14,754 nt of DNA from a virus (Duplodnaviria; Heunggongvirae; Uroviricota; Caudoviricetes): IMG/VR virus record IMGVR_UViG_2660238499_000008. One strand, 5' to 3'. The position numbers and the translations under genes are program-made. Shown in pieces: positions 6,078 to 12,485 of this stretch; position 1 is the first letter of the stretch, and the number at the start of each line of letters is the position of its first letter. The notes beneath the pieces are model-generated. The model was not told the origin of the DNA and searched no databases. It worked only from the letters and a program-made list of their open reading frames with translations.

Positions 6078-6419
6078 ATGATTACTAAAAATTTCCGACT
6101 GAATGCGCTGGCGAATAAGTATGCGTCGGCACTGTATAACCACATTACCTCCACCAGCGGCGGTGACTATTTCATGGTTGATGCGGACGGCCTCGCCGTC
6201 CGTGTGGAAATCGTCAATGGAGTAAAAGGCTTTCGCAGCCTGATCGATAGCTACACACTGGCAGCCATGAAAGTGTCCTACCCGCAGTGGGAAACCGTGG
6301 GGATCGCGCTTCTTGAGCGTTGCGTCACTAAGGACGGATTAACTGACGTCGGGCGCGAGATATGGCAAAGCATGGTTAAAGACATGGGCGCGACCGTGGC
6401 AGGGGGCAACCATGCGTAA
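6078..6419 (+). CDS. Hypothetical protein
   Basis: 113-aa ORF with strong RBS (gaggggg); its stop overlaps the primase start (ATGCGTAA). Confidence 0.6.
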   Translation: MITKNFRLNALANKYASALYNHITSTSGGDYFMVDADGLAVRVEIVNGVKGFRSLIDSYTLAAMKVSYPQWETVGIALLERCVTKDGLTDVGREIWQSMVKDMGATVAGGNHA

Positions 6420-9177
6420 TATCGATCTTATCCGCGAAGTGACCAGTGCCGCCGCCGGGCGCTGGCCTTATGTGCTGGCTGGATTGTCTATCGACGTGCC
6501 TGATTCATCGCGCCGCCATTCTCCATGCCCTGCATGTGGTGGAAAAGACCGTTTCAGATTCGACGACAACGGGCGCGGTAGCTTTATCTGCAATCAGTGT
6601 GGCGCTGGTGACGGTTTAGACCTGATTAAGAAGGTGAACAACTGCGACACTACGGAGGCGGCACAGCTTGCCGCTGATGTGCTGGGTATTGATTACCGGG
6701 CAGCGCAAACCGACCCGGTGGCAGCGAGCCATAGAAGAGAGCAACTGGAAGCTGACCGCCAGCAGCGTGAGCAGGAGCGCCAGAAACAGGCAGCAGAGGA
6801 TGCAGAGCAGCGAAGGGCTACGTTTGCCCGTCTGTATGCCGGAATGCGCCAGAGTGCCACACAGGGAGAATCTGATTACCTGCAATCAAAAGGGCTGACC
6901 GGGTTTAACTATCCGGTTATGCCGGATGGTTCGTTATTGCTGGAGCTGGTGGACGAATCCGGCGCAGTGGCAGCAGCGCAAACCATTACACCGCAGGGAG
7001 AGAAGCGACTCCTGACAGGTTCAGCAAAGCGCGGGGCATATCACGCCGTAAACGCACCAGAACAGCCGCAGAGCGTATTAATTGCCGAGGGGCTGGCGAC
7101 GGCCCTGTCCGTTCACCTGATGCGCCCGGACGCGCTTACAGTGGCGGCAATTGACGCCGGGAACCTGATCCACGTTGCCGGAGTAATGCGCCGGAAACAC
7201 CCGCAGTCGCAAATTATCATTGCCGCAGATAACGACCACCAGCAGGACGAACAGGCGAACACGGGCAAAGATGCCGCAGAGAAAGCCGCCTTATCCGTGG
7301 CTGGCTGGGTGGCGCTGCCGCCGACAGACTACAAAGCCGACTGGGACGACTACCGCCAGCAAAACGGGCTGGAAGTCGCTACGGCTGCGTTTAACGATTC
7401 GATGTACCAGATTCAGGGGGAAGCCGTGAAACCGCGATTGCAAGCCATTGAGGGCGGTAAAACTGACCATCCAGAGAAAGACCCACTAAAACCCCACATT
7501 GAGAGCCGAAAAGATGGCGTTTTCTGGGTAACGCCGAAGGTGGACAAGGAAAGCGGGGAGATCATCAACGCTGAAAGCTGGTTATGTTCACCGCTGGAGG
7601 TTATCGGCACGGGACGCGACGACAAAGATCAGTATCTTATTATCTCATGGCTGGCATTTGGTGCAGGCATACCGACAACAGCGGCTATCCCGCTGGCTGA
7701 TATTGGCGAGCGTGAAGGCTGGCGCACCCTGAAAGCTGGTGGCGTCAACGTCACAACGAAAAACAGCCTACGGGCGATTCTTGCCGACTGGTTACAGCGA
7801 AGCGGCTCGCGTGAATTGTGGCGCGTTGCTCATGCTACAGGCTGGCAGTGCGGGGCATACATCATGCCGGACGGGGAAATCATCGGCACACCTGAGCGGC
7901 CTGTTTTGTTCAGCGGGCGCAGTTCAGCCGCTGCCGGGTATACCGTAGCAGGAACGTCGGAAAGCTGGCGTAACAGTGTTGCGCGGCTGGCATACGGTAA
8001 TTACGCGATGATGACAGGCATCGCCGCAGCACTGGCAGCGCCATTAATCGGGGTGGCAGATCGTGACGGATTCGGGATTCATTTTTATGAGCAATCGAGC
8101 GCCGGGAAAACAACCACGCAGAACGTGGCGAGCAGTCTATACGGCAACCCTGATGCCTTGCGCCTGACGTGGTACGGGACGGCGCTGGGGCTGATAAACG
8201 AGGCCGCCGCCCACAATGACGGGCTGATGCCACTGGATGAAGTCGGACAGGGCGCTGACCCGATAAGCGTTTCTCAGTCTGCCTATGCCCTGTTTAACGG
8301 CGTGGGGAAATTGCAGGGAGCAAAGGAAGGAGGCAACCGGGATCTGAAACGCTGGCGCACCGTGGCAATCAGCACCGGGGAAGTGGACTTAGAAACCTTC
8401 ATCGCCACCGCCGGACGCAAGACCAAAGCCGGGCAACTGGTGCGCTTGCTGAATATCCCGTTAAGTAAGGCGGTGCGCTTTCATGAACACCAGACAGGGA
8501 AAGAACACGCCGACGCGCTGAAAGATGCTTATCAGCACCATCATGGCGCTGCCGGGAGGGAGTGGATCAGATGGCTTTCAGACCACCAGCAACAGGCGAT
8601 TGATGTCGTTCGTGAGTGTGAAGCCCGCTGGCGCAGTCTAATCCCTGCCGACTATGGGGAACAGGTTCACCGTGTAGGGGCAAGATTTGCCATTCTGGAG
8701 GCCGCTTTACTGATGGGTGGCGTGGTTACTGGCTGGGATGCTCAAACGTGCCGGGATGCGATACAGCACGCCTATAACGCATGGCTAAAAGAGTTCGGCA
8801 CGGGGAACAAAGAGCACCAGCAGATCATCGAGCAGGCGGAGGCATTTTTAAATGCCTATGGCCTGAGTCGATTCGCGCCGCTGCCTTACGACCCCGCCAG
8901 CCTGCCGATTCATAATCTGGCTGGATACAGGCAGCGCGGAAATCATGACGATTCACCGATAACGTTTTACACGTTCCCCGACACTTTCGATAAGGATATT
9001 GCTAAGGGGTTTAACAGGCAGCAGGTGGCCCGCGTCCTGAAAGAATCGGGGATGCTTACCCCTTCAGCAGACGGAAAAAAATTTCAGAGGAAAAGCCCGC
9101 GCATTCAGGGGAGGCAGATTAACGTTTACGTTTTGCAATTCCTGCCGGATGGGGAGGAAAGCCAGCCAGGGCAATAA
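6412..9177 (+). CDS. Replicative primase-helicase (P4 alpha-like): N-terminal zinc ribbon, TOPRIM domain, C-terminal Walker-A/B NTPase
   Basis: 921-aa ORF. Zinc-ribbon CPACGG...FICNQCG near the N-terminus. TOPRIM-like acidic motifs (IAEGLATA; IIAADNDHQQDE). Walker A-like SSAGKTT and Walker B-like LMPLDEV in the C-terminal half. Immediately followed by an iteron array. Confidence 0.9.
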   Translation: MRNIDLIREVTSAAAGRWPYVLAGLSIDVPDSSRRHSPCPACGGKDRFRFDDNGRGSFICNQCGAGDGLDLIKKVNNCDTTEAAQLAADVLGIDYRAAQTDPVAASHRREQLEADRQQREQERQKQAAEDAEQRRATFARLYAGMRQSATQGESDYLQSKGLTGFNYPVMPDGSLLLELVDESGAVAAAQTITPQGEKRLLTGSAKRGAYHAVNAPEQPQSVLIAEGLATALSVHLMRPDALTVAAIDAGNLIHVAGVMRRKHPQSQIIIAADNDHQQDEQANTGKDAAEKAALSVAGWVALPPTDYKADWDDYRQQNGLEVATAAFNDSMYQIQGEAVKPRLQAIEGGKTDHPEKDPLKPHIESRKDGVFWVTPKVDKESGEIINAESWLCSPLEVIGTGRDDKDQYLIISWLAFGAGIPTTAAIPLADIGEREGWRTLKAGGVNVTTKNSLRAILADWLQRSGSRELWRVAHATGWQCGAYIMPDGEIIGTPERPVLFSGRSSAAAGYTVAGTSESWRNSVARLAYGNYAMMTGIAAALAAPLIGVADRDGFGIHFYEQSSAGKTTTQNVASSLYGNPDALRLTWYGTALGLINEAAAHNDGLMPLDEVGQGADPISVSQSAYALFNGVGKLQGAKEGGNRDLKRWRTVAISTGEVDLETFIATAGRKTKAGQLVRLLNIPLSKAVRFHEHQTGKEHADALKDAYQHHHGAAGREWIRWLSDHQQQAIDVVRECEARWRSLIPADYGEQVHRVGARFAILEAALLMGGVVTGWDAQTCRDAIQHAYNAWLKEFGTGNKEHQQIIEQAEAFLNAYGLSRFAPLPYDPASLPIHNLAGYRQRGNHDDSPITFYTFPDTFDKDIAKGFNRQQVARVLKESGMLTPSADGKKFQRKSPRIQGRQINVYVLQFLPDGEESQPGQ

Positions 9178-9201
9178 TCTTTTTCACGTGCGAGGTTTTT
9201 T

Positions 9202-9462
9202 GTGGTGGTTCAGGTGGTTCAGGTGGTTCAGTAAGTAATTGTTATTGATTTATAATGTTTTTTTGTAAGAAATTGAACCACCACTGAACCACCAAACGGG
9301 TATTTTGAACCACCAGAGAGAAACGGATTATTTTCACTGGCTGGCAGTGAACCACCAAGAAGGGCGACTGAACCACCAGATAAATTTAAAAGGTGGTTCA
9401 GCAAAACCCAGAGTTGGCGCGGCCTAGAGGGGTACTGAACCACCTGAACCACCTGAACCACC
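9202..9462. repeat. Iteron-type origin of replication: 12 copies of the 8-bp core GGTGGTTC / GAACCACC
   Basis: Three tandem 9-bp units GTGGTTCAG at 9205-9231 (forward). AT-rich spacer at about 9232-9272. Six dispersed copies (9274-9282, 9284-9293, 9306-9314, 9347-9356, 9368-9377 reverse; 9392-9401 forward). Three tandem reverse units at 9436-9462, followed by a T-rich/AT tract. Position directly after the primase-helicase gene matches P4 ori/crr-type logic. Confidence 0.82.
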
Positions 9463-9566
9463 AACTTTTTTGTTTATATACCAATAAATCTGGCGAAGGT
9501 GTCCCACAATAAGACGGAGCCGGGTAATCTTCATTAGCAAAACTAATAATTCGAGGTATTCGCAAA

Positions 9567-10028
9567 ATGACAGCACAGATATCAGCCTACGGGCGTTTAG
9601 TCGCAGACCCCCAGACCCGCACCACAACGAACGGTGCAAGCATGGCAATGGGACGGTTAGCGGTGGCACTGCCCTGCCATGCAGCAGAGGGCGGAGAGGT
9701 TACTTTCTGGCTGGGCGTGGTGGCATTCGGCAAACAGGCCGACGCACTGGCAGGACACGTTAAAGGCGATTTAGTCAGTGTTGCCGGAGCGATGCAGATC
9801 AATCAGTGGACGGGCAAGGATGGCGGTACACAGCAAGGTTATCAGGTAGTGGCCGACAGCGTGATCAGCGCCAGAACGGTACGCCCCGGCGGGAAGCGGG
9901 CCGAATCAGTCAAAGCAAGCGGAGCCAGCAGGGGCCACACAACACAATCCGCGCCGGGATGGGAGTTATATAATACCCCTGATGATTTTGACCAACGCCC
10001 ACCATTCGACGATGAAACGCCATTCTGA
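9567..10028 (+). CDS. ssb: Single-stranded DNA-binding protein (SSB), OB-fold with acidic C-terminal tail
   Basis: 153-aa ORF. N-terminal half aligns by eye with bacterial SSB OB-fold (GRLVADPQTRTTTNG; WLGVVAFGKQADALAGHVKGDLVSVAGAMQINQWT). Gly/Ser-rich linker and C-terminal ...FDDETPF resembling the SSB D-D-D-I-P-F tail. Confidence 0.88.
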   Translation: MTAQISAYGRLVADPQTRTTTNGASMAMGRLAVALPCHAAEGGEVTFWLGVVAFGKQADALAGHVKGDLVSVAGAMQINQWTGKDGGTQQGYQVVADSVISARTVRPGGKRAESVKASGASRGHTTQSAPGWELYNTPDDFDQRPPFDDETPF

Positions 10029-10038
10029 GAGGGAAGAT

Positions 10039-10680
10039 ATGAGTACACAACCCACCATTATCGAGTTAGGCAGCTATCGCTGGCCCAGACATCTCGCAAT
10101 ACACGAAGCAGGTCATGCGATAGCCGCATGGTTTTTCGGCATACAGGAGGTAGAAATTGCGTTATCGGGTAATAACCGAGTGGCAAAAACCTACCTTAGC
10201 GGCGATGTTGATGAGTGTGGAGCCGTCGCGGTATGGCACGCCAACTATCCACGGAATGTGGCTGAGGTTAAGTCTTACACCCTCTCGAACGATGACGCCA
10301 GATTACGTCTGATAGACCAGGTATGCCGGGATATGGTTATCTCTCTGGCTGGTATCGTCGCGCAATCACGCTATACGGGGGATGATATTAACGCACTGAT
10401 GGAAACGTCCGGGAAAGCAGACATGAAAAATGTTCGTGATTTATCAGAGGTATACCGGGTGGCTGGTGGAGAGGATGCTGATATACAGAGAATATCACTT
10501 TCCCGTGCTGAGGCGCTGATTGCCCTGAAATGGTGGGATGTTATCGCGCTGGCGAAAATACTGGAGAACCGTAACCATATGCCTGCCAGAAACTTCCAGC
10601 GCATTATGGGTGATATTGACAAGCCTGTACCAAAGCCTATGACGCTGGCTGAACTGGATGAATTGGTGGGTGAAGAATGA
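10039..10680 (+). CDS. Putative zinc metallopeptidase (HExxH motif; ImmA/IrrE-like or FtsH-like HEAGH)
   Basis: 213-aa ORF from ATG at 10039 (RBS gagggaag). Motif LAIHEAGHAIAAW encoded at about 10093-10131 (HEAGH at 10102-10116). Family not resolved and third metal ligand not identified. Confidence 0.55.
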   Translation: MSTQPTIIELGSYRWPRHLAIHEAGHAIAAWFFGIQEVEIALSGNNRVAKTYLSGDVDECGAVAVWHANYPRNVAEVKSYTLSNDDARLRLIDQVCRDMVISLAGIVAQSRYTGDDINALMETSGKADMKNVRDLSEVYRVAGGEDADIQRISLSRAEALIALKWWDVIALAKILENRNHMPARNFQRIMGDIDKPVPKPMTLAELDELVGEE

Positions 10681-11027
10681 AGCCATACATTCTGGCAGCC
10701 GTCCTGATCTCATCGGCACCGGCACTATCTGCTATCCATTGTGGGGGCTTTACTATACAGCCAGACCGTTATCGGACAACGATTAACGGCGATGTGGTTC
10801 ATATTGTTGATGCGCAATTTTACGGCGCACCGCGAGACTTTAGCCAGGCCGCCATAAAGTTATTGCCGGATGCCATTACCACTACCGACAGGCAATACCG
10901 ACTGGAGACGCAGGGAAGCAATGCCTTGCTTGAGTTGATGACCAGAGAAAACCCGCCACGTGTGCTTAATCGTGAGCGCTGCGATGCCGGGCTAACAGGC
11001 TTTTACTGGTACTCGTCTGTGCCGTGA
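10677..11027 (+). CDS. Small exported protein with N-terminal signal peptide
   Basis: 116-aa ORF; start overlaps the stop of the HExxH gene (ATGA). N-terminus MKPYILAAVLISSAPALSA has a positive n-region, hydrophobic core and AxA-like cleavage site. Confidence 0.6.
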   Translation: MKPYILAAVLISSAPALSAIHCGGFTIQPDRYRTTINGDVVHIVDAQFYGAPRDFSQAAIKLLPDAITTTDRQYRLETQGSNALLELMTRENPPRVLNRERCDAGLTGFYWYSSVP

Positions 11028-11096
11028 GGTTCGCACCGAACGCAGGCTAAAATTCTAGACTGTTCTTGACAGATTTTAAACCCAAGTAGCGCTAAA

Positions 11097-11195
11097 CCCG
11101 CGCCAGCAGAGGGCTGGAAACCAGAGCGTGATTTAGGTCGTCCAGAATATTCTGGTTCGCGCCACTGGTACGCAGTACGCAGTCAGGTACGCAGC
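11097..11195 (+). promoter_or_regulatory. Regulatory module copy A: CTGGAAACCAG dyad, perfect 14-bp palindrome CCAGAATATTCTGG, and three GTACGCAG heptamer repeats
   Basis: CTGGAAACCAG at 11114-11124; CCAGAATATTCTGG at 11142-11155; (G)TACGCAG at 11168-11175, 11176-11182 and 11187-11194. About 50 bp upstream of the TerS-like gene. About 85 bp is recognisably duplicated at 11692-11776. Confidence 0.5.
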
Positions 11196-11241
11196 AAAAC
11201 CGCGCATTCAGTTAGGTTTTTTGCGCACAGTGAGCCGTTAA

Positions 11242-11619
11242 ATGAAAAAAAATAGCCAACAATCAAGATCCGGATGGGGTGGCAAGCGGAAAGGCGCAGG
11301 CGCACCGTTGGGCAATACTAATGCCGTCAAACATGGCGAACGCAGTAGGCGGGCATTCTTCCCGTTTGAGGGAGAAGATGCGCTTTCTCCGCTGGTGCGA
11401 AATCGTGCAAGAAACCTCATGATGGCTGAGAGATACGGGCTATTACTGGCGACTAATCCGACGCCGGGAACAGAAGAATGGCGCGAGATGACATTGATTA
11501 ACGGACTCATGGGGCTACATGCCGACAGAATCGCACGGCTTGAGCTGAGTTTAGCGAGATCCGTTTCAATGCAAGCAAGGCGGGATCTGCGAAGGGTTAA
11601 AAAAAACGGCGCATGTTAG
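11242..11619 (+). CDS. Small basic protein with GxPxGNxNAxKHG motif; possible terminase small-subunit-like / packaging-redirecting protein
   Basis: 125-aa ORF. N-terminus GGKRKGAGAPLGNTNAVKHGERS resembles a motif I associate with phage small-terminase-family proteins (recalled, not verified). No large terminase or capsid genes in the element. Confidence 0.5.
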   Translation: MKKNSQQSRSGWGGKRKGAGAPLGNTNAVKHGERSRRAFFPFEGEDALSPLVRNRARNLMMAERYGLLLATNPTPGTEEWREMTLINGLMGLHADRIARLELSLARSVSMQARRDLRRVKKNGAC

Positions 11620-11691
11620 CAATCCGTATAGTCACCGATGTTGAAATACTGGACTGTACTGGACAGACTCAAAGCCCATATGAAGAGAGAA

Positions 11692-11866
11692 CCGCGCCAG
11701 TAGCGGGCTGGAAGCCATATTCGATTTAGGCAGTCCAAAATATTCTGGCTCGCGCCATTGGTTCGCAGTGCGCAAAATAGTGCGCAATTTACAGTAAAAT
11801 ACGCATATTATTTCGCATTCATTTTTGCGCACCGTTCGCAGTTAATGCGCAGTAATTCGCAGGAGG
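11692..11866 (+). promoter_or_regulatory. Regulatory module copy B: diverged duplicate of module A, extended by an array of at least 8 TNCGCA(G) repeats and ending in a strong RBS
   Basis: 11692-11776 aligns by eye with 11097-11181 (roughly three-quarters identity), with the palindrome degenerated to CCAAAATATTCTGG at 11735-11748. Between 11761 and 11860 are repeated ttcgcag / tgcgcaa / ttgcgca / atgcgcag / attcgcag elements. AGGAGG at 11861-11866. Confidence 0.5.
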
Positions 11867-11873
11867 CCCGCCA

Positions 11874-12485
11874 GTGAGAGACAGAACGCGCAGCTATATC
11901 ACCGACCTGCCCCGTATAGGGTTGCCATTCCTTGCGAACATGCGTAGCAGGCTGGCGGACGCCGAACCGGGGACGCAGCTTTATACCCAGACCGAAAGCG
12001 GAACGTTGTATACCTTCCGGCAAGCCGACAGCTACGCCATGACAATCAACGGCGTTACACGGGCAATCAGAACCACGACCACACAAGCCGGGTATGGTGT
12101 GCGGGAATGGTACGTCTGTCCCCACTGCATAAAGCGGGTAGCGAAGCTGTATATCGGCAAAAAAGATATTGGCTGCCGGGGATGCTGGAAACTCCACTAT
12201 AAAAGCCAGAGCGCCGACAGACTGGACAGGATGCGAATGAAGATACGCCAGCAGCGATGCGCGATATGGGGAAGCAATGACCTTGCCAATAATCTGTTTA
12301 ATGACATTCGCATGTTCCCAAAACCAAAGGGGATGCGCTGGGCTACGTTTGACAGGAAGCGGGCAGAGTTATCAGTTATGGAGATGGCTTACTGGCAGGC
12401 ATTCAGTCCGGTAGTAGATAGAATCAGGGGCATGGTTGAGCGTAAGACGGGGAAAGCAGCCAGAGGCATTGGCCTGACTTTGTAA
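11874..12485 (+). CDS. Hypothetical protein with C4 zinc-ribbon (CPHC...CRGC)
   Basis: 203-aa ORF starting at GTG 11874, 7 nt after a perfect AGGAGG (alternative ATG at 11939). CxxC pairs CPHC and CRGC separated by 16 residues. Preceded by regulatory module B. A 6-bp stem hairpin follows the stop (about 12489-12505) but has no U-tract. Confidence 0.65.
   Translation: MRDRTRSYITDLPRIGLPFLANMRSRLADAEPGTQLYTQTESGTLYTFRQADSYAMTINGVTRAIRTTTTQAGYGVREWYVCPHCIKRVAKLYIGKKDIGCRGCWKLHYKSQSADRLDRMRMKIRQQRCAIWGSNDLANNLFNDIRMFPKPKGMRWATFDRKRAELSVMEMAYWQAFSPVVDRIRGMVERKTGKAARGIGLTL

What the first reader, a model, noticed from the sequence alone, without database searches (positions are those of the whole stretch)
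10039..11027. HExxH putative metallopeptidase co-translated with a small signal-peptide protein
A stand-alone HEAGH protein in a satellite could be a repressor-cleaving (ImmA/IrrE-like) protease used for induction or helper manipulation. The overlapping downstream gene encodes a small exported protein, a pairing I do not recognise; it might be an exclusion factor or toxin partner.
Basis: partly seen in the sequence, partly recalled or inferred. Interest (0 to 1): 0.55.

Follow-up and report, generated by a model that had tools for sequence, protein, structure and literature searches.

The report
ATPase-less FtsH-like protease in a phage satellite
A phage-satellite island in E. coli carries an uncharacterised small zinc protease shaped like the cutting half of the cell's FtsH protease, followed by a gene for a small exported protein; the genes are real and conserved, but the protease is not the repressor-cleaving type first suggested and its target is unknown.

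Summary
ORF 10039-10680 encodes a 213-aa protein with HEAGH at residues 22-26. It overlaps by ATGA an ORF (10677-11027) for a 116-aa protein with a Sec-type signal peptide and two conserved cysteines.

The window is a PICI-type satellite between yicC and dinD. The gene sits directly after primase, iteron origin and ssb, ahead of packaging-like genes. Diverged relatives hold the same position in other satellite lineages.

The gene is optional: sibling islands go straight from ssb to PerC. Its downstream neighbour varies between the exported protein, PerC, a 356-aa lipoprotein and a TerS-like gene. The exported protein was found only behind an M41-like gene, in three diverged lineages.

I read it as an accessory helper- or host-directed protease with separate envelope cargo. 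The substrate is unknown.

Moderate interest: a new variant of a known kind.

The parts
10039..10680 (+). 213-aa soluble stand-alone M41 (FtsH protease-domain)-like zinc metallopeptidase gene
10102..10116 (+). HEAGH zinc-binding/catalytic motif (H22 E23 A24 G25 H26)
   Evidence: Read from the sequence. E23, A24 and H26 are invariant and H22 is kept in all but one sequence across 26 sequences down to about 20% identity.
10420..10422 (+). D128 codon, candidate third zinc ligand (SGKADM, compare FtsH GASNDI)
   Evidence: Invariant in the narrow and wide family alignments. Equivalence to the FtsH Asp is inferred from motif spacing and helix position. It was not checked on coordinates.
10677..10680 (+). 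ATGA stop/start overlap (translational coupling)
   Evidence: Read from the sequence. Conserved in E. coli, L003, L008, L018 and Salmonella L026.
10677..11027 (+). 116-aa exported small all-beta protein gene
   Evidence: ORF. 17 homologue clusters, with C22 nearly invariant (12 of 13) and C102 invariant. AF2 model has 8 strands, pLDDT 81. No significant fold match. Ka/Ks 0.20-0.32.
10677..10733 (+). predicted Sec signal peptide (residues 1-19, cleavage ALSA|IHC)
   Evidence: Hydropathy maximum 1.97 at residues 5-19 after K2. Homologues keep the same pattern. SignalP was not available, so the cleavage site is inferred.
9567..10028 (+). satellite ssb gene, immediately upstream (10-nt gap), probably in the same transcript
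   Evidence: Pfam SSB E 1.7e-14. RefSeq annotation. No + strand promoter or terminator pattern in 9100-11900.
6412..9177 (+). P4-type primase/helicase of the satellite replication module
   Evidence: RefSeq 'phage/plasmid primase, P4 family'. Homologues carry Zn_Ribbon_Prim, Toprim_3 and DUF927.
9203..9464 (.). iteron cluster (12 x GGTGGTTCAG), probable origin
11242..11619 (+). 125-aa protein with a TerS-like N-terminal motif; the next conserved gene downstream, marking the start of the packaging-related region
   Evidence: Weak TerS hits. A 60% identical homologue sits beside DUF2280 in L035. Present after PerC in sibling islands.

Best explanation
**What it is (shown).** ORF 10039-10680 encodes a 24-kDa soluble zinc metallopeptidase. 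It has the fold and active-site signature of the FtsH (MEROPS M41) protease domain, but no AAA+ unfoldase and no membrane anchor. It is an optional gene of a PICI-type phage satellite integrated between yicC and dinD. It lies 10 nt behind ssb, at the end of the primase, iteron-origin and ssb replication module, and ahead of the packaging-related genes. Diverged relatives occupy the same place in other satellite lineages.

**How it most likely works (inferred).**
- It is transcribed with the replication genes once the satellite is induced.
- It needs no ATP, so it would cut an exposed or unstructured segment of a helper-phage or host protein.
- That cut would bias the infection toward the satellite. 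I call this an interference or helper-manipulation protease.

**The exported protein (inferred).** The 116-aa ORF overlapping by ATGA encodes a Sec-exported, probably disulfide-bonded, small beta-barrel protein. It sits in a swappable cargo slot, where the alternatives are a PerC regulator or a 356-aa lipoprotein. It most likely acts on its own in the periplasm, for example as an exclusion factor or enzyme inhibitor. It would use the protease gene only for coupled expression, and is neither the protease's substrate nor an obligate partner.
For: **Identity of the protease**
- AF2 model pLDDT 81, pTM 0.82.
- All of the top 28 Foldseek PDB hits are FtsH, AFG3L2 or FtsHi protease domains.
- hhalign of the 26-sequence family against the E. 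coli FtsH protease domain gives probability 94%, E 1e-7 over the C-terminal helices.
- Motif-level M41 hits occur in several family members.
- RefSeq names a relative 'peptidase M41 family protein'.
- Family-wide invariant residues are E23, A24, H26, G105, A108 and D128. These mirror FtsH HEAGH...GGRxAE...GASND.
- No transmembrane segment.

**Position**
- It is directly after ssb in E. coli, Klebsiella, Serratia and the 'Pseudomonas graminis'-labelled locus L003. One gene intervenes in Dickeya and Pectobacterium.
- In L035-L042 the order is primase, p183, M41-like, DUF2280/TerS-like.
- More distant relatives lie beside AAA_25/DnaB replication genes of other mobile elements.
- Fillol-Salom 2018 (PMC6092414) places phage-interference genes after the replication genes in PICIs.

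**Optional gene**
- Sibling islands at the same site go straight from ssb to PerC.
- The pair is in 28 of 5426 E. coli genomes, against 121 genomes that match the wider ssb-containing query.

**Independence of the small gene**
- Downstream neighbours vary: the 116-aa protein, PerC, a lipoprotein or DUF2280.
- There is a recombination breakpoint at about 10660. L018 has the M41 gene at 67% aa identity and Ks 1.1, but the small gene at 95% and Ks 0.14.
- The two products are in different compartments.
Against: - No substrate, activity or phenotype is known, so the functional half rests on position and analogy.
- The small gene was never seen without an M41-like gene directly upstream. Three M41 lineages that share only 24-35% identity precede it, and the ATGA overlap is kept wherever the two genes abut. 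That argues for a functional link I may be underrating.
- The close family has Gln109 where FtsH and distant relatives have Glu (LAGxVAE). One member has QEAGH. Activity may therefore be reduced in some members.
- The sequence does not reach the Pfam M41 gathering score (12.3 against 29.9 bits).
- Expression timing is inferred only from gene order and from the absence of promoter or terminator patterns in a crude scan.
Confidence: 0.4

Rival explanations
1. The two genes form one functional anti-phage or superinfection-exclusion module. The cytoplasmic protease controls or senses, and the exported protein is the envelope effector or a toxin held in check. An example would be the protease degrading the precursor until infection disturbs it.
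For: - In every locus examined the small gene follows an M41-like gene.
- This holds across three M41 lineages (24-35% identity between them), while the small protein stays 59-100% identical.
- The Dickeya, Pectobacterium and Serratia variants are also followed by an exported protein, a lipoprotein with a lipobox LPLGAC.
- The module sits in a slot that is swapped between sibling islands, as satellite defence cargo often is.
Against: - No PADLOC match for either protein.
- The protease occurs without any exported neighbour in Klebsiella (PerC) and in L035-L042 (DUF2280).
- The products are in different compartments.
- There is free recombination at the junction.
- The lipoprotein and the 116-aa protein are unrelated.
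Confidence: 0.22
2. It works like ImmA/IrrE although it is not a member of that family. The protease would cleave a transcriptional repressor or regulator of the satellite or of the helper prophage, to trigger or lock in induction.
For:
- Some relatives have HTH proteins nearby: a 331-aa HTH protein upstream in Dickeya and a 198-aa HTH protein downstream in Pectobacterium.
Against: - No M78 profile or fold match.
- No adjacent HTH gene in the window, and none consistently across loci.
- The gene lies downstream of the replication genes, so it is probably expressed after induction rather than before it.
- Per PMC6092414 these islands are organised around AlpA. That Gram-negative PICIs are induced through AlpA rather than through a cleavable repressor is my own knowledge and was not tested.
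Confidence: 0.1
3. It mimics or poisons FtsH. The ATPase-less protease domain would co-assemble with, or compete with, host FtsH. That would change turnover of FtsH substrates such as lambda CII/CIII, and so change the helper's lysis-lysogeny choice.
For: - The fold is that of the FtsH protease domain, which forms the hexameric base of FtsH.
- The C-terminal helices, which align to those of FtsH, are the most conserved part of the close family (KWWD..ALAKILENRNHMP).
- FtsH control of lambda CII/CIII is established knowledge.
Against: - Only 13-21% identity to FtsH.
- Nothing tested here addresses oligomerisation or binding.
- Catalytic residues would not need to be invariant for a pure mimic.
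Confidence: 0.08
4. It is a catalytically dead protease-fold protein, like the plastid FtsHi proteins, that serves as a scaffold or binding protein in replication or packaging.
For: - FtsHi (inactive) chains are among the best structural matches.
- Gln109 replaces the conserved Glu.
- One member has QEAGH.
Against: HExxH and D128 are conserved across the family down to about 20% identity and under purifying selection. That pattern is not expected of a pseudo-enzyme.
Confidence: 0.05

Closest known systems
FtsH / MEROPS M41 protease domain (E. coli FtsH, T. maritima 2CE7, A. aeolicus 2DI4, human AFG3L2)
   Different: No AAA+ ATPase and no transmembrane anchor. Only 213 aa, with 13-21% identity. 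Below the Pfam M41 threshold. Encoded on a phage satellite. Gln replaces the conserved Glu in the close family.
ImmA/IrrE (M78) anti-repressor proteases of mobile elements
   Same: A small, stand-alone, ATP-independent HExxH protease carried by a mobile element. It could in principle cleave a regulator.
   Different: Different family and fold. No PF06114 match, no structural match and no cognate HTH repressor gene next to it. A true HTH+M78 gene sits elsewhere in the Salmonella locus (L026:11140-12252), which shows that such genes are detectable.
Gram-negative PICIs (EcCI elements; Fillol-Salom et al. 2018, PMC6092414)
   Same: The host element has int, alpA and a P4-type primase in one orientation, iterons after pri, about 13.5 kb, a fixed chromosomal site, and PerC variants as accessory genes in siblings.
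   Different: The papers searched do not describe an M41-like protease or this exported protein as a PICI gene.
MliC/PliC-type periplasmic lysozyme inhibitors and T4 Sp-type periplasmic exclusion proteins (for the 116-aa protein)
PDB 5IQJ, uncharacterised Vibrio cholerae protein
   Different: 131 aa, function unknown. Not examined further.

Membership tests
MEROPS M41 / FtsH protease domain | HExxH zinc-binding and catalytic motif in the first helix (HEAGHA in FtsH) | tested here: met
   HEAGHA at residues 22-27. E23 and H26 are invariant and H22 is kept in all but one sequence across 26 sequences. The E. coli FtsH motif was read from ftsH.
MEROPS M41 / FtsH protease domain | Third zinc ligand Asp at the start of a later helix (FtsH GASND) | tested here: inconclusive
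   D128 (SGKADM) is invariant family-wide and lies at the N-terminus of helix 126-141. hhalign did not align this stretch to FtsH, and model coordinates could not be inspected.
MEROPS M41 / FtsH protease domain | M41 protease-domain fold | tested here: met
MEROPS M41 / FtsH protease domain | Reaches the Pfam PF01434 gathering score | tested here: not met
   12.3 bits against 29.9, motif only. NCBIfam gives no hit. Profile-profile comparison with the wider family gives 94% probability for the C-terminal part.
FtsH proper (ATP-dependent membrane protease) | N-terminal transmembrane segments and an AAA+ ATPase module fused to the protease | tested here: not met
   213 aa, no AAA domain hit, maximum 19-residue hydropathy 1.33.
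M78 ImmA/IrrE | PF06114 profile match or IrrE-like fold | tested here: not met
M78 ImmA/IrrE | Adjacent cognate HTH repressor gene | tested here: not met
   The neighbours are ssb and the exported-protein gene. No consistent HTH neighbour across loci.
M50B-like peptidases (PF13398) | Membrane-embedded HExxH protease with several transmembrane helices | tested here: not met
   Only a 26-residue motif hit, E 0.011, below threshold. No transmembrane segment.
Known anti-phage defence systems (PADLOC-DB 2.0) | Profile match of either protein to a catalogued defence protein | tested here: not met
   No hits at E<=1 for either protein or for four neighbours.
Gram-negative PICI (host element) | int, alpA and pri in one orientation, iteron origin after pri, 10-15 kb, no virion structural genes, fixed att site | tested here: met
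   RefSeq annotation of the 99% identical island and its siblings between yicC and dinD. Iterons. No structural-gene hits in the window ORFs that were scanned.
Gram-negative PICI (host element) | Induction, packaging and transfer by a helper phage | not testable with these tools
   Needs experiments.
MliC/PliC lysozyme inhibitors (116-aa protein) | Family profile or motifs and a clear fold match | tested here: inconclusive

The most novel reading that the evidence does not exclude
Phage satellites of Enterobacterales carry a previously unrecognised family of ATPase-less FtsH-fold proteases as a dedicated weapon. The protease would cleave a specific helper-phage or host protein (or subvert host FtsH) to steer the helper's life cycle. 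In one branch it would be functionally coupled to a periplasmic partner, giving a two-compartment interference and exclusion module of a new type.
Probability: 0.2. Interest if true: 0.65.

Novelty: new variant of a known kind. Interest (0 to 1): 0.4.

Why it matters
- **Satellite biology.** If the protease has a defined phage or host target, it would add proteolysis to the known ways satellites manipulate helpers. Those known ways are packaging redirection, capsid resizing and late-gene repression.
- **Enzymology.** It would also show that the FtsH protease domain can work as a free-standing enzyme.
- **Annotation.** The family currently has no Pfam model. RefSeq labels most members 'hypothetical protein'. 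Placing the family in the M41 fold with a conserved genomic position gives a usable annotation and a testable hypothesis.
- **The exported protein.** It is a candidate envelope-level exclusion or inhibitor factor.
- **Limit.** As things stand this is a well-supported family assignment, not a surprising mechanism.

Tried and rejected
- **Profile libraries.** Pfam, NCBIfam, PADLOC and PHROGs gave nothing significant for either protein.
- **Sequence search of PDB.** A family-profile search found only chance or motif-level hits.
- **Narrow-alignment hhalign.** Comparison with FtsH aligned only the motif. It needed the wider alignment.
- **tblastn against 50,697 GenBank phages.** No match.
- **Genome-contig scan.** Only 2 loci, because the patterns were too specific.
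- **Rfam on 9100-12000.** Nothing.
- **Promoter and terminator scan.** No + strand sites and counts no higher than in shuffled sequence, so it is uninformative about independent expression.
- **Lipoprotein as a larger relative of the 116-aa protein.** Rejected (hhalign probability 0.3%).
- **Literature.** Searches on PICIs, cf-PICIs, helper-embedded satellites, yicC islands, stand-alone M41 and satellite metalloproteases found no description of this family.
- **Prohead protease.** Considered and rejected from my own knowledge of prohead proteases: wrong protease family and wrong position (the gene lies before TerS), and the window has no capsid genes.
- **Lit-like EF-Tu protease.** Considered and rejected, because PADLOC gave no hit.

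Full report
**1. Observation**

The window holds an ORF at 10039-10680 (+) encoding 213 aa, with HEAGH at residues 22-26 (nt 10102-10116). A second ORF at 10677-11027 (+) encodes 116 aa, and its ATG overlaps the first ORF's TGA as ATGA.

The 10039 start has a Shine-Dalgarno sequence and lies 10 nt after the ssb stop. Nearly all homologues start at the equivalent Met.

The small protein begins MKPYILAAVLISSAPALSA|IHC. It has a hydrophobic core (Kyte-Doolittle 1.97 at residues 5-19) and two conserved cysteines: C22 (12 of 13 sequences) and C102 (invariant). The protease has no membrane-like segment.

Both genes are under purifying selection, with Ka/Ks 0.12-0.32.

**2. Where the window comes from**

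The region is 99% identical to E. coli S43. There it is part of an island of about 13.5 kb between yicC and dinD.

The gene order is integrase, a DUF6387-like gene, an AlpA-type regulator, AntA, DUF4222, an Icd-like gene, several small genes, a P4-family primase, ssb, the two genes of interest, and further hypothetical genes.

Between the primase and ssb lie twelve copies of GGTGGTTCAG, including 31-nt perfect inverted arms. This is a typical iteron origin.

This architecture matches Gram-negative phage-inducible chromosomal islands as described by Fillol-Salom et al. 2018 (PMC6092414). Calling the element a satellite is reasonable, although mobilisation cannot be tested here.

**3. Which protease family**

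- **Sequence libraries.** Pfam, NCBIfam, PADLOC and PHROGs give no significant match. Only motif-length hits to M50B (E 0.011) and M41 (E 0.15) appear, and nothing to M78/ImmA. A profile search of PDB sequences is also negative.
- **Size of the family.** It is small. There are 23 clusters at 90% identity, almost all from Enterobacterales. There are 64 representatives at E<=1e-3 among 1.84 billion proteins.
- **Structure.** An AlphaFold model built on 17 sequences is confident (pLDDT 81, pTM 0.82).
- **Foldseek against PDB.** Its top 28 hits are all protease domains of FtsH, AFG3L2 or plastid FtsHi.
- **Conserved residues.** Across 26 relatives down to about 20% identity, the invariant residues are E23, A24, H26, G105, A108, D128 and A172. 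H22 is kept in all but one sequence.
- **Match to FtsH.** This pattern parallels E. coli FtsH: HEAGHA ... GGRLAEE ... GASNDI. Profile comparison of the family with the E. coli FtsH protease domain gives 94% probability (E 1e-7) over the C-terminal helices.
- **Independent annotation.** RefSeq names one relative 'peptidase M41 family protein'.

I conclude that the protein is a stand-alone M41-fold zinc peptidase lacking the AAA+ and membrane parts of FtsH. It is not an ImmA/IrrE protein.

There are three caveats:
- The close family has Gln109 where FtsH and distant relatives have Glu.
- One Pectobacterium member has QEAGH.
- I could not inspect model coordinates, so the role of D128 as zinc ligand is inferred.

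**4. Genomic behaviour of the protease gene**

The gene is found in islands of the same type. It lies directly after ssb in E. coli, Klebsiella, Serratia and locus L003, which is labelled 'Pseudomonas graminis'. One gene intervenes in Dickeya and Pectobacterium.

Diverged relatives (22-28% identity) in IMG/VR contigs L035-L042 follow this order: P4-type primase, a conserved 183-187-aa protein, a small ORF, the M41-like gene, then DUF2280 (TerS-like). In L035, a 60% identical homologue of the window's 125-aa protein follows DUF2280. In the loci whose later genes were scanned (L035) or read from ORF lists (L036, L037), capsid and tail genes come next.

Still more distant relatives lie near AAA_25/DnaB replication genes of other mobile elements. 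No deposited phage genome encodes a relative.

The family therefore recurs at the boundary between the replication and packaging modules of satellite-like elements.

It is not essential. Sibling islands at the same yicC-dinD site run straight from ssb into a PerC-family gene. Only 28 of 5426 complete E. coli genomes carry the pair, against 121 that match the wider ssb-containing query.

**5. The pairing**

The gene downstream of the protease varies:

| Downstream gene | Where seen |
|---|---|
| 116-aa exported protein | E. coli and relatives |
| PerC | Klebsiella |
| 356-aa lipoprotein (lipobox LPLGAC) | Dickeya, Pectobacterium, Serratia |
| DUF2280 | L035, L037-L039 |

The lipoprotein is unrelated to the 116-aa protein.

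The converse is different. Every copy of the small gene that I examined follows an M41-like gene.

- **Salmonella.** A 186-aa M41-like protein is only 32% identical to the window's (hhalign probability 99.8%). It precedes a 59-64% identical small protein with the same ATGA overlap, in a different upstream context.
- **E. coli 30COLEC.** An L035-type M41 gene is followed by a 3' remnant of the window-type gene and then the small gene.
- **Recombination.** The two genes nonetheless recombine independently. L018 has a 67% identical protease (Ks 1.1) but a 95% identical small protein (Ks 0.14). The breakpoint lies near 10660.

The pairing is therefore real and recurrent, but asymmetric. It is not obligatory for the protease.

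**6. The small protein**

It is best described as a periplasmic, probably disulfide-bonded, small beta-barrel of unknown function. An inhibitor or exclusion role is a guess.

**7. Mechanism**

- **Shown:** an FtsH-fold peptidase signature, solubility, lack of an ATPase, position behind the replication module, optional presence, and translational coupling to an exported protein.
- **Inferred:** expression with the replication genes after induction. No promoter or terminator pattern interrupts 9100-11900, but that scan is weak.
- **Inferred:** ATP-independent cleavage of an exposed segment of a helper-phage or host protein, as an interference or helper-manipulation function. Published descriptions place interference genes after the replication genes in PICIs.
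- **Inferred:** the small protein acts separately in the envelope.

I give this reading 0.4. The rivals are:

| Rival | Confidence |
|---|---|
| Genuine two-gene defence or exclusion module | 0.22 |
| ImmA-like regulator cleavage by a non-M78 enzyme | 0.10 |
| FtsH mimicry or poisoning | 0.08 |
| Pseudo-enzyme scaffold | 0.05 |

**8. Novelty and verdict**

No paper found in six literature searches describes this family or the pairing.

It is a new variant of a known kind: an M41-fold peptidase stripped of its unfoldase and borne by a satellite. It is not a new kind of system.

Its favoured family is wrong, and its broader functional idea remains open.

Interest is moderate (0.4). The family assignment and the conserved position are solid and make a clear experiment possible, but nothing here is yet surprising to a specialist.

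Noticed in passing
window 9203-9464: Twelve copies of GGTGGTTCAG (4 forward, 8 reverse) lie between the primase stop and the ssb start. They include perfect 31-nt inverted arms at 9203-9233 and 9433-9463. This is probably the satellite's iteron origin.
   Followed up: partly
window 11050-11181 and 11644-11774: A direct repeat of about 130 nt (73-87% identity) brackets the 125-aa gene. Copies are also present in related islands L003, L006, L015 and L018. There is no Rfam match. It could be a repeated regulatory, packaging or recombination site.
   Followed up: partly
window 11242-11619: A 125-aa protein has an N-terminus (GWGGKRKGAGAPLGNTNAVKHG) that resembles small-terminase N-termini (NCBIfam E 7e-4, PHROG E 3e-3). 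A 60% identical homologue sits beside DUF2280 in L035. It is a candidate packaging-redirection gene.
   Followed up: partly
L006:11659-11970, L007:11474-11755, L015:10687-10992: In sibling islands the slot after ssb or after the M41 gene holds a PerC-family regulator instead of the exported protein. The slot behaves as a swappable cargo position.
   Followed up: yes
L004:10718-11788, L023:10757-11827; also L035-L041 near their left ends: A 356-aa lipoprotein with no Pfam domain follows the M41-like gene in Dickeya, Pectobacterium and Serratia. In 7 of 8 distant loci, homologues of 62-66% identity lie about 6-8 kb upstream of the M41-like gene, where checked (L037, L040, L041) just before a recombinase of about 300 aa. 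The co-occurrence is unexplained.
   Followed up: partly
L047:5287-6709 (E. coli 30COLEC): A second-lineage M41-like gene, which RefSeq calls 'peptidase M41 family protein', is followed by a 115-aa 3' remnant of the window-type gene and then the small exported gene. This is evidence of cassette replacement inside the protease gene.
   Followed up: yes
L026:11140-12252 (-): The Salmonella locus carries a genuine HTH_3 + Peptidase_M78 gene of 370 aa close to the M41-like/small-protein pair. It is an ImmA-type protein of a different family.
   Followed up: no
L008 and L003: These records are labelled Chryseobacterium sp. and Pseudomonas graminis. They carry islands whose M41-like genes are 95% and 73% identical to the E. 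coli one. This probably reflects contamination or mislabelling of the assemblies.
   Followed up: no
P0016 / L021:10001-10663: One Pectobacterium member has QEAGH instead of HEAGH. The whole close family has Gln109 where FtsH and distant relatives have Glu.
   Followed up: partly
L035-L039: In the loci examined in detail (L035, L037), satellite-like modules (recombinase, P4 primase, p183, M41-like, DUF2280) lie directly next to capsid genes, and in L035 tail-sheath genes, on 28-53-kb viral contigs, without an obvious portal or large terminase between them. This may be a helper-embedded or capsid-forming satellite arrangement.
   Followed up: partly
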